IMG/VR virus record: IMGVR_UViG_3300045988_021623
Location: 1-42,484 of that record
Strand: one strand, 5' to 3'
From: a virus
DNA length: 42,484 bases
The position numbers and the translations under genes are program-made. Shown here piece by piece: positions 120 through 13,111 of this stretch (its first letter is position 1; every line of letters starts with the position of its first letter). Below the pieces are notes generated by a model, which was not told the DNA's origin, searched no databases, and saw only the letters and a list, made by a program, of their open reading frames with translations.

Positions 120-340
120 CCGCCCCGAGGGGCTACAACGCCGCCCACATTGGGCGTTAGTCTTTCCATTGGCCGTCTTCCCGCTTAGATTGTCACATCA
201 CCGATTGCTGCTTTACAAGTGCAGCACCATTACGCTGAGGCGTTTCCCTCCCACGGTGCAGTTTTCAGCGAGCTTTATCATTTCCATGTGAGCCATGACG
301 ACAACGGTCTCACATTGTCCGGGCGCTACCCGGCCTCTTG

Positions 341-414
341 TGCAGACGGCAGGACTCGAACCTGCGACATTTCCATTATTTGCGAAACGCTCTTGCCCAC
401 TGAGCTACGTCTGC
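341..414 (-). tRNA. tRNA-like gene with non-canonical anticodon loop (A33, anticodon reads AAU); isotype undetermined
   Basis: A 74-nt minus-strand cloverleaf: GCAGACG-TA-GCTC-AGTGGGCAA-GAGC-G-TTTCG-CAAATAA-TGGAA-ATGTC-GCAGG-TTCGAGT-CCTGC-CGTCTGC-A. The GG D-loop and the T-loop are canonical. No CCA is encoded. Confidence 0.7.
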
Positions 415-11158: not shown

Positions 11159-11301
11159 CCCCTGTCGAGATACGGCAGCAACTCATACAGCACCTTGCAC
11201 ACCGCGCACGCGCCGATGACGGCAAGCCCCGTCGTAAAGTCGCAGCCGTTCAGCGCGATCACCGCAGCGGCAATGCCGCCGAAAAACAACGTATCGATCA
11301 T
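11146..11301 (-). CDS. Small hydrophobic protein (51 aa)
   Basis: The product is MIDTLFFGGIAAAVIALNGCDFTTGLAVIGACAVCKVLYELLPYLDRGCRR. Its ATG overlaps the upstream stop (ATGA). Confidence 0.45.
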   Translation of the reverse strand: MIDTLFFGGIAAAVIALNGCDFTTGLAVIGACAVCKVLYELLPYLDRGCRR

Positions 11302-11543
11302 TTCGCGCCTCCGATCAGCATGAGCTTTTCCGCGTCCGTAAATTGCAAAACTCGGTCAAGCTCCCAAATTTCATCTAAAGTCCAGCGGGAACGCCCCGCC
11401 ATGCGATTGCAGATTTGCGTTTCCGATAGGCCGATTTCCTCGCCCAGCTCCTTGCCGGTGCGAATCAACGCCCGTCCCATCGCGCCGCGCACGGCTCGCT
11501 CAAGGTCGTTTCGCCGTCGCGTTAACTGTTGTGGCTTTAGCAT
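11298..11543 (-). CDS. Small HTH-like regulator
   Basis: Internal ATG at 11543 follows AAAGGAAAAGG. Product MLKPQQLTRRRNDLERAVRG...IGLSETQICNRMAGRSRWTLDEIWELDRVL. Confidence 0.5.
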   Translation of the reverse strand: MLKPQQLTRRRNDLERAVRGAMGRALIRTGKELGEEIGLSETQICNRMAGRSRWTLDEIWELDRVLQFTDAEKLMLIGGAK

Positions 11544-12286
11544 CTTGCCTTTTCCTTTCTTCCGTGCTACAATAAGCACGGACACAATATCTTGTGGTGA
11601 GATTTGTCCCACCCGCCCCGCTCGATGCTGCAACATTGGGCGGGGCATTTTTTATGCCTTGCGTTTCGAATCAGTACCATGCCAAGGCAAAACGTCGCAA
11701 CTCCTCTGCGGTTCTCTGCGGTTCTCTTCCACTGCTAATCAGAGCCACTCGAGCCTTCGCAACTCCGCTGCAGCACTTTGCTGAACTATTCCTCTGCGTT
11801 GCTATGCCTTGCTATGCCTTGCCTAGCTATGCCGTCGCTAGTCTCTGCTTTTCGCTACCATGCCGCCGCGAAACACCGCCTTGCCAAACCATTGCGTTAC
11901 CTTCCAATGCTGTACAGTTCACATCATTGCCGTCGCTCTCGCTACTCTGTGCAAAGCGGTTCAGTGCCGTTGCATCTCAAGGCCATACCGTAGCATCTCT
12001 AAGCGATTCCGCAGCGTATCACTGCTGAGCAGTTCCCTCGCTCTGCTCGGCGAATCATCGCCCTTCCTAGCTCTTCCCTTGCCATGCCCTGCCACGTCCG
12101 GCTGAGCGCTTCCATTGCTGCTCACGGCGAATCTGAGCAATCCCATTGCTGTGCTGTTACGACCCATGCAGTGCAGTTCCGACGCTAATCAAGGCAAGTC
12201 TATACCATCGCGCTGCTTCTCCGGTCCCTGCTACTCGCTACCAATGCTGTGCTGTGCTTCGCATTACGAAGCGATTCCTTTGCGCG
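11544..12286 (-). other. ORF-free, strand-skewed, repeat/hairpin-rich region inside the early operon (candidate long ncRNA or protein-binding array)
   Basis: No RBS-preceded ORF is present. The track ORFs here overlap in several frames and have non-protein-like composition. The plus strand is pyrimidine-rich and A-poor. There are tandem 10-mers at 11704-11723 and 11801-11820, plus recurring GCA(A/T)TGG words and duplicated hairpin modules. Confidence 0.5.
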
Positions 12287-12880
12287 TTACTCGATTTCCT
12301 CCCAGCGGAATCTGCCTTTTCCACTGTTTCGCCACTGGCCAATGCCGGAGAAGCGTCCATAGTCCAGCCAGTCGCGCACAACGTCGATGTGGTCGTCGCA
12401 CAGGCAGACCACCGTAAACTCGCACGTTGCCCCGGCGGGGATTTCCTCGCTCATGGCAAGGCTGACGCGCTCGCCCTGCGCCGTCTGCGCTCTCAGCGGG
12501 CGCTGGCACTCCTTGATCTCACCGTCAAAAAGAATTGGAATGGTGCGCGGCTCGGGGAAAATCAGCTTGTCGATTTCCTTCTTATAGGCCTTGATTTTGC
12601 TGCTGGACGAATCCTTGACCTTGCGCAGACCGCCGCAGGTGTCCTTGAAAAAGCCCTTGATTTGGTAGTCGTACAAAAACGGCGTGCCGTCGTCCAGTCG
12701 CGGGAAAATGGTCATGGACTTCTCGGCAACCGCATCCGCGCCGAGCGCCGCCACCTCGTCCTCCACGCTCGCCGCATCGGGCGCGTGGCTGCCGATAAAC
12801 TCGCGGTAAATGTCAGGGTTCGCAGGGCTGGTACCGAGAATTGGCTCGATAAACGTTAATTTAACTTTGAGTTCTTTCAT
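12287..12880 (-). CDS. Hypothetical early protein with RAMP-like C-terminal glycine-rich loop
   Basis: 197-aa ORF, first gene after the cro-like gene, preceded by AGGAGGAAATGAAAAG. It ends with YGRFSGIGQWRNSGKGRFRWEEIE. Confidence 0.7.
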   Translation of the reverse strand: MKELKVKLTFIEPILGTSPANPDIYREFIGSHAPDAASVEDEVAALGADAVAEKSMTIFPRLDDGTPFLYDYQIKGFFKDTCGGLRKVKDSSSSKIKAYKKEIDKLIFPEPRTIPILFDGEIKECQRPLRAQTAQGERVSLAMSEEIPAGATCEFTVVCLCDDHIDVVRDWLDYGRFSGIGQWRNSGKGRFRWEEIE

Positions 12881-12904: not shown

Positions 12905-13111
12905 TTAGTTCTCTTCGCTGGATTTCAGCAGCGAATCCATGGTAACGCCGAAGTGCTTTGCCAGCTTCTTGACTTGGCGCGGATGCGGGCGGCACACGCT
13001 CTCTTTCCAGTTTTTGATCGATGTCTGCGATACGTCGATTTCTTTTGCAAGACGGTAATTCGTCTCGCCATGCTCGGCTTGCAGTCGAGCCAGATTTTCA
13101 GGGAAACTCAA
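12905..13111 (-). CDS. Cro-like XRE-family HTH regulator
   Basis: TTG start with GGAGGG 6 nt upstream. Contains NYRLAKEIDVSQTSIKNWKESVCRPHPRQVKKLAKHFGVTMDSLL. Confidence 0.75.
   Translation of the reverse strand: MSFPENLARLQAEHGETNYRLAKEIDVSQTSIKNWKESVCRPHPRQVKKLAKHFGVTMDSLLKSSEEN

What the first reader, a model, noticed from the sequence alone, without database searches (positions are those of the whole stretch)
11544..12286. 740-bp ORF-free, purine-skewed, repeat- and hairpin-rich tract inside the early operon: candidate long ncRNA (protein or RNA sponge) or protein-binding array
The genome is otherwise tightly packed, with overlapping start and stop codons, yet this tract has no RBS-preceded ORF.
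- The ORF-track entries here overlap each other in four frames. They translate to Cys/Leu/Ser/Pro-rich sequence that does not look like protein.
- The plus strand is pyrimidine-rich and A-poor (for example 9 A in 11761-11820). A transcript in the direction of the flanking minus-strand genes would therefore be A/G-rich.
- No intrinsic terminator follows the upstream gene, which ends at 12287, so the tract is probably co-transcribed with it.

Several kinds of internal structure are visible:
- Tandem 10-mers CTCTGCGGTT x2 (11704-11723) and GCTATGCCTT x2 plus a degenerate third copy (11801-11835).
- About ten GCA(A/T)TGG or GCATGG words on the minus strand.
- A pair of related modules, GATTCGCCG(T)GAGCAG...GGAA...GCTCAG, at about 12026-12060 and 12100-12140. 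Each folds into a 5-7 bp hairpin that presents a GGA-containing loop.
- Duplicated words GGAATCGCTT (12001 and 12269) and TCGCTACCA(A)TGC (11852 and 12234).

Arrays of GGA-loop hairpins recall the Csr/Rsm-type sponge RNAs. Irregular arrays of one short word recall iteron or centromere-like DNA sites. Neither is expected at this position in a phage.
Basis: partly seen in the sequence, partly recalled or inferred. Interest (0 to 1): 0.75.

Follow-up and report, generated by a model that had tools for sequence, protein, structure and literature searches.

The report
Phage VIPR guide-RNA array, variant repeat
The "ORF-free tract" is an array of about 20 short guide-like RNAs built from 5-base repeats with a G at every fifth base, and together with the neighbouring 197-aa Cas7-like protein it forms a phage VIPR system, a kind of RNA-guided DNA-recognition system first described in 2026 preprints.

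Summary
On the minus strand (the gene strand), 12277-11655 parses into pentamers G-[C/A]-N-N-N. G occupies 143 of 148 phase positions. The pentamers form about 20 units of 21-41 nt (5n+1), each closed by a GCAAYG|G step.

The adjacent 197-aa protein (12287-12880) is a single-RRM RAMP/Cas7-like protein. Protein and array travel together:
- 135 of 139 protein-anchored loci carry an adjacent same-strand array.
- 96 of 112 arrays found by DNA pattern alone carry the gene, and none carries it on the opposite strand.
- Among 63 phages with the same Cro-like gene, 4 have both parts and 59 have neither.

A second, very distant RAMP family carries GG-Y-N-N arrays and matches the solved SUSP1 "Vipr" protein. 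That led to two 2026 bioRxiv preprints on VIPR (Viral Interference Programmable Repeat) systems. In these, one protomer binds each pentamer, the conserved bases are sequestered, and the variable bases read double-stranded DNA (dsDNA) to silence competing phages.

The window holds a VIPR of the "YNNNG" repeat kind, with unusually short units. Its targets could not be found. The CsrA-sponge, iteron and pseudogene readings are not supported.

The parts
12287..12880 (-). vipr-like gene: 197-aa single-RRM RAMP (Cas7-like) protein
   Evidence: No hit in Pfam, PHROG, NCBIfam or PADLOC. A profile of 46 homologues hits type VII Cas7 (E 4e-6) and Csm4. The AF2 model has pLDDT 83.7. The top 50 Foldseek PDB hits are all type III, type VII or Cas7-11 effector-complex entries (prob 1.0, TM about 0.56). 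A BFVD homologue is auto-named 'Cas system-associated RAMP superfamily protein'. Invariant residues include R127 and R130 (thumb hairpin) and G175, G179, W183, G189 (G-loop).
11655..12277 (-). vrRNA-like array: about 125 pentamers G-[C/A]-N-N-N in about 20 units of 5n+1 nt
   Evidence: Viterbi phase parse gives G at 143 of 148 phase-0 positions, with +1 steps at GG. No RNA structure beyond shuffles. No Rfam family and no hammerhead.
12242..12277 (-). unit 1 (36 nt, 7 pentamers + G)
12206..12241 (-). unit 2 (36 nt)
12180..12205 (-). unit 3 (26 nt)
12144..12179 (-). unit 4 (36 nt, one pentamer off phase)
12113..12143 (-). unit 5 (31 nt)
12077..12112 (-). unit 6 (36 nt)
12036..12076 (-). unit 7 (41 nt)
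12010..12035 (-). unit 8 (26 nt)
11989..12009 (-). unit 9 (21 nt)
11968..11988 (-). unit 10 (21 nt)
11931..11967 (-). unit 11 (37 nt, one extra inserted base)
11890..11930 (-). unit 12 (41 nt)
11864..11889 (-). unit 13 (26 nt)
11833..11863 (-). unit 14 (31 nt)
11792..11832 (-). unit 15 (41 nt; holds the GCAAGGCATA tandem 10-mers)
11766..11791 (-). unit 16 (26 nt)
11730..11765 (-). unit 17 (36 nt)
11704..11729 (-). unit 18 (26 nt; holds the GAACCGCAGA tandem 10-mers)
11683..11703 (-). unit 19 (21 nt)
11655..11682 (-). unit 20 (last, about 28 nt; runs into the A-tract)
11544..11654 (-). structured 3' segment after the array (four hairpins). Role unknown: it could be a cap or tail of the array RNA, a leader of the next gene, or an antisense-terminator module.
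   Evidence: MFE -45.2 against -30.5 +/- 3.1 kcal/mol in shuffles, z = -4.7. Conserved in close relatives whichever gene follows. On the plus strand it reads as a promoter-like site at 11545-11573 plus an intrinsic terminator at 11615-11646 with T6.
12905..13111 (-). context: Cro-like HTH gene directly upstream. It is not part of the module.
   Evidence: HTH_3 and P22_Cro hits. Of 63 phages with a homologue of this protein, only 4 carry the module.
11298..11543 (-). context: 81-aa HTH gene downstream. Possible accessory gene, but not conserved with the module.
   Evidence: PHROG 4583. No downstream gene family is shared by more than 37 of 139 loci.

Best explanation
The tract and the 197-aa gene together form a VIPR (Viral Interference Programmable Repeat) system.

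**Shown here**
- The protein is a minimal RAMP: one RRM, a helical insert, a long beta-hairpin 'thumb', and a G-loop reading GIGQWRNSGKGRF.
- The tract is a same-strand array of pentamers with an almost invariant G, a preferred C (or A) after it, and three variable positions.
- The pentamers are grouped in 5n+1-nt units.
- Gene and array are gained and lost together.

**Inferred by homology with the VIPR systems characterised in the 2026 preprints**
- The early (PR-type) transcript carries the array.
- One protomer binds each pentamer and forms a helical filament.
- The conserved G-Y bases are flipped into protein pockets. W183 and R184 of the G-loop and the thumb arginines would correspond to W178, R179 and R138 of SUSP1 Vipr.
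- The exposed variable bases read a gapped sequence in double-stranded DNA. This represses transcription of a competitor such as another prophage, phage or satellite.

**Register.** In canonical numbering G1 G2 Y3 N4 N5, the window's repeat is N1 G2 Y3 N4 N5, the 'YNNNG' alternative listed in the preprint. This family lacks the two residues that read G1 in SUSP1: H17 aligns with T17 and D177 with Q182. The family that keeps GG in its repeats keeps His and an acidic residue at those positions.
For: **Array anatomy**
- Window parse and statistics.
- 557 clean units from 56 non-redundant arrays have lengths 21/26/31/36/41/46 nt (24/147/183/118/44/20 units). Of 741 phase slips, 656 are +1 steps at GG.
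- The junction GCAANG|G(A/C)AW is conserved from >=95% down to <65% protein identity.

**Selection**
- Substitution per phase among homologous units is 0.025 (G), 0.091, 0.113, 0.121 and 0.179.

**Linkage of gene and array**
- 135 of 139 protein-anchored loci have the array: 120 downstream, 8 upstream, 7 on both sides.
- Of 112 arrays found by DNA pattern alone, 96 have the gene within 1.5 kb on the same strand and 0 on the opposite strand. Nine of the remaining 16 sit at a locus edge.
- Co-presence and co-absence are 4/4 and 59/59 among phages with the same Cro-like gene.

**Protein**
- RAMP/Cas7 fold.
- Natural tandem fusions of two such domains exist, which fits head-to-tail oligomers.

**Second dialect**
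- A distant RAMP family (F2a) is followed in 41 of 46 loci by a lag-5 phased array, G-phased in 37 of them. The arrays read are GG-Y-N-N pentamers with a -1 junction, GGCA|GG, spaced 44/49/54/59/64 nt.
- The F2a profile hits PDB 36pp 'SUSP1 Vipr protein' at E 1.5e-8.

**Literature**
- bioRxiv 10.64898/2026.04.26.720920: YNNGG repeats; alternatives NNNGG, YNNNG and NNNNG; staggered arrays; phage-encoded minimal RAMP; 1-nt-skip dsDNA code; silencing of cro and cI.
- bioRxiv 10.64898/2026.04.26.720927: one protomer per repeat; contacts H17/D177 for G1, R138/W178 for G2, R179 for Y3.
- The G-loop and N-terminal motifs of the three families are visible.
Against: - The window's protein family is not detectably similar in sequence to SUSP1 Vipr. 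No 36pp hit appears at E <= 10. Profile-profile comparison with the SUSP1-like family aligns only the G-loop (E 0.017).
- Units hold only 4-9 repeats. That is 8-18 guide bases if two bases are read per repeat, against 9-16 repeats in the characterised vrRNAs. There is no conserved tail or ribozyme between units.
- No natural target was found under any tested rule (2 or 3 read bases, skip 0-3) in 2.85 Mb of related phage DNA. The same database also gave nothing for canonical GGYNN guides, so that test had no power.
- Array divergence between close relatives is about what neutral drift plus unit gain and loss would give: 75-90% identity in aligned columns, against 93-97% DNA identity in most pairs for a gene whose protein is 98-100% identical. 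This does not by itself show selection on guide content.
- Transcription, processing and binding were not observed.
Confidence: 0.8

Rival explanations
1. Scaffold only. The Cas7-like protein polymerises on the phased-G RNA, but the variable bases carry no target information. The ribonucleoprotein acts as such, for example as a decoy for host type III CRISPR subunits, as protection or antitermination of the early transcript, or as autoregulation.
For: Only G, and weakly the next base, are constrained. Divergence at the other positions is roughly neutral. Units are short. No targets were found. The module sits first after cro in the early operon, a typical slot for anti-defence or regulatory genes.
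Against: The related VIPR systems have been shown experimentally to be guide-programmed. Unit diversity is very high: 691 distinct units in 486 families across 110 loci. Each of the three window units searched, with the phased G masked, occurs in only one IMG/VR contig. The target searches here had no power.
Confidence: 0.12
2. DNA-level element. The tract is a protein-binding array on double-stranded DNA (iteron, centromere, origin or packaging site) whose 5-bp phase follows the DNA helix.
For: The mean period in this family is 5.17-5.18 nt, so two periods span 10.3-10.4 bp, close to the helical repeat of B-DNA. The tract lies near replication genes.
Against: The sister dialect has a mean period of 4.9 nt because its junctions are -1 steps. 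Each unit holds exactly one +1 step whatever its length, from 4 to 9 pentamers. The signal is on one strand and always the strand of the RAMP gene, whether the array lies upstream or downstream. The partner protein has an RNA-binding RAMP fold.
Confidence: 0.03
3. Csr/Rsm-type sponge RNA that titrates host CsrA through GGA-loop hairpins.
For: A few hairpins present GGA in their loops, for example at 12100-12140.
Against: GGA occurs 15 times against 13.6 +/- 2.7 in shuffles, and ANGGA 4 times against 3.6. The MFE z-score is +0.24. The conserved features across hundreds of loci are the 5-nt G phase and the GCAAYGG step, not GGA.
Confidence: 0.01
4. Decayed pseudogene or recoded gene.
For: None beyond the length of the gap.
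Against: All frames hold mixed stop codons, so no single reassignment opens one. Relatives differ by indels of 21-46 nt that are not multiples of 3. The periodicity is 5 nt, not 3.
Confidence: 0.01

Closest known systems
VIPR systems (Vipr protein plus vrRNA); type II of Escherichia phage SUSP1 and a Pseudomonas fulva prophage (bioRxiv 10.64898/2026.04.26.720920 and .720927)
   Same: Phage-encoded. A roughly 20-kDa single-RRM RAMP with thumb, G-loop and helical insert. No CRISPR array and no other cas genes. Flanking non-coding arrays of tandem pentanucleotide repeats, with conserved G/Y positions and variable N positions. Gene and array are co-oriented. Repeat types other than YNNGG, including YNNNG, are reported in the preprint.
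   Different: The repeat is G-Y-N-N-N rather than G-G-Y-N-N. Y is only about 65% pyrimidine, and A takes about 30%. Units hold 4-9 repeats rather than 9-16. Units are joined by a 1-nt spacer step (GCAAYG|G) with no tail, pseudoknot or ribozyme between them. About 20 units lie in one 620-nt block. No conserved vap gene was found. The protein shows no detectable sequence similarity to SUSP1 Vipr beyond the G-loop. Which of the seven VIPR types it belongs to could not be determined.
Class 1 CRISPR effector backbones (Csm3/Cas7 of type III, Cas7 of type VII) on crRNA
   Same: The closest solved folds. Oligomers form along a guide RNA, a thumb flips bases at a fixed period, and RNA length varies in steps of one subunit footprint.
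   Different: The period is 5 nt, not 6. The flipped bases are sequence-specified. There are no 23-50-nt repeats or spacers, no Cas5/Cas6/Cas10/Cas1-2, and the protein has a single RRM.
Periodic RNA motifs read by protein oligomers: TRAP with 11 (G/U)AG repeats at 5-6-nt spacing, and the TMV origin of assembly with G every third base (from my own knowledge)
   Same: A short base signature is repeated at the footprint of one subunit and sets the register of a protein oligomer on single-stranded RNA.
   Different: The proteins are unrelated. Those RNAs have no variable 'information' positions and no array of many units.
RNA anti-CRISPRs (Racrs; PMC10651486) and type III toxin-antitoxin RNA arrays (ToxI)
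   Same: Phage or mobile-element non-coding repeat RNAs that act by being bound by a RAMP or an endoribonuclease partner.
   Different: Racrs mimic host CRISPR repeats and use host Cas proteins. ToxI repeats are near-identical 36-nt units cut by their own toxin. Neither has a 5-nt phase.

Membership tests
VIPR | Vipr protein: minimal RAMP with one RRM, G-loop, thumb and helical bundle, and no second RRM | tested here: met
   The AF2 model (pLDDT 83.7) has the order beta1, two helices (22-44), RRM helix 71-85, long hairpin 123-147, G-loop 175-190 and a final strand. Foldseek gives prob 1.0 to type III, type VII and Cas7-11 effector-complex entries. The profile hits the G-loop region of type VII Cas7 and of Csm4.
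VIPR | Sequence or profile homology to an experimentally characterised Vipr (SUSP1, PDB 36pp) | tested here: inconclusive
   The window family (A1) has no 36pp hit at E <= 10. A1 against the SUSP1-like family (A2) aligns only the G-loop, E 0.017. A2 itself hits 36pp at E 1.5e-8. The preprint states that RAMPs share little sequence similarity and were found by structure.
VIPR | Tandem pentanucleotide repeats with conserved G(G)Y and variable N positions | tested here: met
   The variant consensus is G(0.92) C/A(0.51/0.31) N N N. The preprint lists YNNNG and NNNNG repeats as alternatives.
VIPR | Array flanks the vipr gene on the same strand, in a virus or provirus, without CRISPR or other cas genes | tested here: met
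   The window is a temperate siphovirus-like genome.
VIPR | Variation concentrated in the N positions | tested here: met
   Substitution fractions by phase are 0.025, 0.091, 0.113, 0.121 and 0.179. The contrast between N positions is modest.
VIPR | vrRNA architecture: 9-16 repeats plus a conserved 3' tail (type II), or staggered, ribozyme-separated or single vrRNAs | tested here: inconclusive
   Units hold 4-9 repeats and are separated by a +1 step with no tail. No hammerhead was found. One structured segment follows the whole array. The sister family's -1 junction fits the preprint's 'staggered, 1-nt overlapping' arrays. The +1 form may or may not be the same thing.
VIPR | vrRNAs are expressed and co-purify with Vipr | not testable with these tools
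   No expression data are available. Only the lack of a terminator between gene and array is known.
VIPR | Natural targets in competing mobile elements under the 1-nt-skip rule | tested here: inconclusive
   No rule gave an excess over permuted or reversed controls in 2.85 Mb. The control with canonical guides was also negative. Collection scans were exhausted.
VIPR | vap accessory gene | tested here: inconclusive
   The only common neighbours are the phage's own cro and cI genes, and the Cro-like gene occurs mostly without the module. The preprint also reports stand-alone vipr genes.
CRISPR-Cas | Array of near-identical 23-50-nt repeats separated by unique spacers; adaptation genes; multi-protein or large effector | tested here: not met
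   No such repeats are present. No other cas-like gene lies in the neighbourhood.
Csr/Rsm sponge RNA | Many GGA motifs, mostly in hairpin loops, beyond what composition predicts | tested here: not met
Iteron or centromere DNA array | Direct repeats of about 10-22 bp bound as duplex, independent of orientation relative to transcription | tested here: not met
   The phase is 5 nt, confined to one strand, and always co-oriented with the RAMP gene.

The most novel reading that the evidence does not exclude
This very large gut-phage family may use a VIPR dialect whose rules differ from the published one. The differences would be:
- one specified G rather than GG, matched by loss of the two G1-reading residues in the protein;
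- possibly three read bases per repeat;
- very short guides of 4-9 repeats strung together by single-nucleotide spacers.

These guides might be read as one continuous, stuttered filament, or act cooperatively on clustered sites. Either way, specificity would be built in a way not yet described. The modal unit of six repeats equals one turn of the published binary filament.
Probability: 0.3. Interest if true: 0.75.

Novelty: new member of a known kind. Interest (0 to 1): 0.68.

Why it matters
VIPR was first reported in 2026 preprints, from 667 representative systems drawn from NCBI. This window shows that an unannotated protein family carries the same kind of system in temperate phages of gut Clostridia (Oscillospiraceae and relatives).

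- **Size of the family.** It has at least 8,000 clusters at 90% identity and 1,768 representatives at 50% identity. It has no Pfam, PHROG, NCBIfam or PADLOC model, no Rfam family and no name in any source.
- **Position.** The module sits right after cro at the lysis-lysogeny switch.
- **A natural experiment on the code.** The repeat keeps only one of the two guanines, and the protein has lost exactly the residues that read the other. This protein-RNA co-variation can be tested directly.
- **An open question.** The short, spacer-joined units raise the problem of how enough specificity is reached.
- **Practical use.** The 5-nt G phase with 5n+1 or 5n-1 junctions is a simple signature for finding such arrays in raw sequence. 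CRISPR finders and ORF callers both miss them.

Tried and rejected
- **Stop-codon reassignment.** All frames hold mixed stops. The only tRNA in the window is tRNA-Ile.
- **Rfam.** Nothing at gathering threshold, and only chance-level hits at E <= 1; no hammerhead.
- **CsrA sponge.** GGA is not enriched and there is no excess structure.
- **CRISPR-like targets spaced 5 nt.** The 16-of-16 spaced-seed search over roughly 1 Mb of related phage loci matched only other arrays. Three window units, searched in IMG/VR with the phased G masked, occur in a single contig that holds the same array. After reading the VIPR papers I saw that this geometry was wrong, because targets are read with a 1-nt skip.
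- **VIPR-type target search.** I tried read positions (2,3), (3,4), (1,2), (2,3,4) and (1,2,3) with skips 0-3, using 646 units of at least 7 repeats against permuted and reversed controls. No rule gave an excess. A control with 93 canonical GGYNN guides was equally negative. The 2.85-Mb database is too small, so this does not count against targeting.
RecT stacks on every fifth nucleotide (PMC9772228). It is rejected because the recombination genes differ between loci while the RAMP gene stays.
- **B-DNA helical phasing.** Rejected because the sister dialect has -1 junctions and a mean period of 4.9 nt.
- **Type assignment.** The preprint's supplementary tables are not held as text, so the VIPR type could not be assigned.
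- **Other collections.** No homologue in PLSDB plasmids. The GenBank phage collection holds only four uncultured gut records.
Full report
**1. The observation**

- The stretch 11544-12286 has no credible ORF in any frame. No single stop-codon reassignment opens one.
- The minus strand, which carries all the flanking genes, is 61% purine.
- No minus-strand terminator separates the tract from the 197-aa gene ending at 12287.
The words are enriched about tenfold over dinucleotide shuffles.
- Two claims do not hold. The array RNA folds no better than shuffles (z = +0.24). GGA and ANGGA are at shuffle level.

**2. What organises the tract**

I aligned 210 GCAAYGG sites from 56 non-redundant homologous tracts. 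G appears at about 90% at positions -10, -5, 0 and 5, and then at 6, 11 and 16, each followed by C at 50-65%. Spacings between successive words peak at 26, 31, 36, 41 and 46 nt (5n+1), then at 57-77 nt (5n+2).

In the window:
- P(G at +5 | G) is 0.61, against 0.33 +/- 0.026 in shuffles.
- The best global period is 5.18 nt.
- All 12 top-scoring 300-nt windows of the 42 kb lie inside the tract.
- A phase parser reads 12277-11655 as about 20 units of 21-41 nt, with G at 143 of 148 phase positions.

Across 557 clean units, the lengths are 21/26/31/36/41/46 nt (24/147/183/118/44/20 units). Each unit reads G[A/C]A.. (GCNNN)n GCAAN G. Among homologous units, substitutions per phase are 0.025, 0.091, 0.113, 0.121 and 0.179. 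The G is therefore under strong purifying selection and the other positions are much freer.

**3. The partner protein**

- The 197-aa protein has no Pfam, PHROG, NCBIfam or PADLOC match, and no name in any source.
- Its family is very large: at least 8,000 clusters at 90% identity and 1,768 representatives at 50% identity.
- A profile of 46 members hits type VII Cas7 (E 4e-6) and Csm4.
- The AlphaFold model has pLDDT 83.7. Its Foldseek matches are all type III, type VII or Cas7-11 effector-complex entries, at probability 1.0.
- A 68%-identical gut-virome protein is auto-named 'Cas system-associated RAMP superfamily protein'.
- Natural fusions of two such domains exist.
- Titles of host MAGs (metagenome-assembled genomes) point mainly to Oscillospiraceae and other Clostridia.

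**4. Linkage of gene and array**

- *Starting from the protein:* 135 of 139 loci have a phased-G region next to the gene on the same strand. It lies downstream in 120, upstream in 8 and on both sides in 7.
- *Starting from a DNA pattern only:* 112 of 119 IMG/VR matches are arrays. Of these, 96 have the gene within 1.5 kb on the same strand and none has it on the opposite strand. Most of the rest sit at a locus edge.
- *Starting from the Cro-like gene:* among 63 phages with a homologue, 4 have both gene and array and 59 have neither.

The only other recurrent neighbours are the phage's own cro and cI genes. The module is a two-part cassette placed first after cro.

**5. A second dialect and the link to the literature**

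A different, very distant RAMP-like protein (218 aa, G-loop CGVGEWRPE) is followed in 41 of 46 loci by its own lag-5 phased array, G-phased in 37 of them. Read directly, these arrays are pentamers GG-Y-N-N with a -1 junction, GGCA|GG, spaced at 44, 49, 54, 59 and 64 nt.

Its profile hits PDB 36pp, 'SUSP1 Vipr protein', at E 1.5e-8. That name led to two bioRxiv preprints of April-June 2026.

- *10.64898/2026.04.26.720920* describes VIPR systems:
  - a phage-encoded minimal RAMP (Vipr);
  - vrRNAs of 9-16 YNNGG repeats, in which GGY is conserved and NN is hypervariable;
  - recognition of dsDNA by a gapped '1-nt skip' code;
  - silencing of competing phages, for example at cro or cI;
  - seven types, with alternative NNNGG, YNNNG and NNNNG repeats, and staggered or ribozyme-separated arrays.
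- *10.64898/2026.04.26.720927* gives the structures:
  - one protomer per repeat in a right-handed filament;
  - G1 read by H17 and D177;
  - G2 held between thumb R138 and G-loop W178;
  - Y3 held in a pocket with R179.

**6. Placing the window**

In canonical numbering the window's repeat is N1-G2-Y3-N4-N5, that is 'YNNNG'. The motifs line up as follows.

| Family | G-loop | N-terminal strand | Source |
|---|---|---|---|
| SUSP1 Vipr | CGVGDWRP | PFLSHAD | |
| GG-dialect family | CGVGEWRP | PLIMHAW | |
| Window's family | GIGQWRN | EPILGTS | |

- The Trp and Arg that hold G2 and Y3 are kept in all three families.
- The His and the acidic residue that read G1 are kept where the repeat keeps GG. 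They are replaced by Thr and Gln where G1 is free.
- This co-variation is an inference from motif alignment, not from a structural superposition. It fits the published contacts.

**7. What remains open**

- The window's family shows no detectable sequence similarity to SUSP1 Vipr beyond the G-loop. Membership therefore rests on fold, context and array anatomy.
- The units are short, at 4-9 repeats. They are joined by a 1-nt spacer and have no tail between them. A single structured segment (11544-11654, z = -4.7) follows the whole array.
- Arrays differ strongly between phages whose proteins are 98-100% identical. Their genes are only 93-97% identical at the DNA level in most pairs (two pairs 99-99.7%). 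Drift plus unit gain and loss could therefore account for much of the array difference.
- My searches for natural targets found nothing. They also found nothing for canonical guides, so they carry no weight.
- Expression and binding are inferred, not shown.

**8. Verdict**

The finding is real and is a member of a newly described kind of system. It carries a repeat dialect and an array layout that deserve experimental follow-up. The sponge, iteron and pseudogene readings are not supported.

Noticed in passing
window 11545-11655 (plus strand): A promoter-like site (TTGCCT-17-TACAAT, TG-extended; 11545-11573) is followed by a strong plus-strand intrinsic terminator (13-bp stem at 11615-11646, then T6). 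Together they would give a plus-strand RNA of about 75 nt, antisense to the 3' edge of the array transcript and to the leader of the next gene. The terminator could equally serve to stop antisense transcription into the array. The segment is conserved in close relatives whichever gene follows.
   Followed up: partly
L242:7804-8645 and loci L333-L377: A second RAMP family related to SUSP1 Vipr has GG-Y-N-N arrays with -1 junctions (GGCA|GG) and units of 5n-1 nt, with a mode of 49. This probably matches the 'staggered, 1-nt overlapping' arrays of the preprint. In L364, L365 and L371 the strongest lag-5 score was for A rather than G, although the arrays of L364 and L365 read directly show GG pentamers.
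   Followed up: partly
L264:4034-4666 and L379-L408: A third RAMP-like protein (211 aa, G-loop GFGLGIGSGRSSGYGRY) occupies the post-cro region in relatives of this phage that lack the window's module. Upstream of it is an A-rich (42% A) tract of about 360 nt with only a weak A-every-5 signal (0.2-0.35). It may be another VIPR dialect.
   Followed up: partly
P0134 (458 aa), P0199 (432 aa): P0134 is a natural tandem fusion of two Vipr-like domains; each half is 36% identical to the window protein. P0199 matched the query over two stretches in the representative search and may be another such fusion, but I did not compare it directly.
   Followed up: partly
L163, L182, L149 (IMG/VR): Short phased-G arrays (200-300 nt) occur with no recognisable Vipr-like ORF in the DNA fetched. 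In L163 and L182 a Cys-rich ORF of about 215 aa lies next to the array. These may be orphan arrays, or the gene may lie elsewhere in the genome.
   Followed up: no
L242:9125-9460: One phage carries both dialects. A GG-Y-N-N array follows its SUSP1-like vipr gene. About 500 nt further on, after an unrelated ORF, lies a G-Y-N-N-N array with GCAACGG junctions but no window-type vipr gene nearby.
   Followed up: no
window 340-414 (minus strand): A tRNA-Ile gene with the unusual anticodon AAT, at the end of the early region.
   Followed up: no
array junctions, e.g. window 12113-12121: The junction GCAAYGG(A/C)A(W) resembles the 8-nt 5' tags of type III crRNAs (ACGGAAAC, ACGAGAAC, AUUGAAAG). This resemblance comes from memory only and was not tested.
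   Followed up: no
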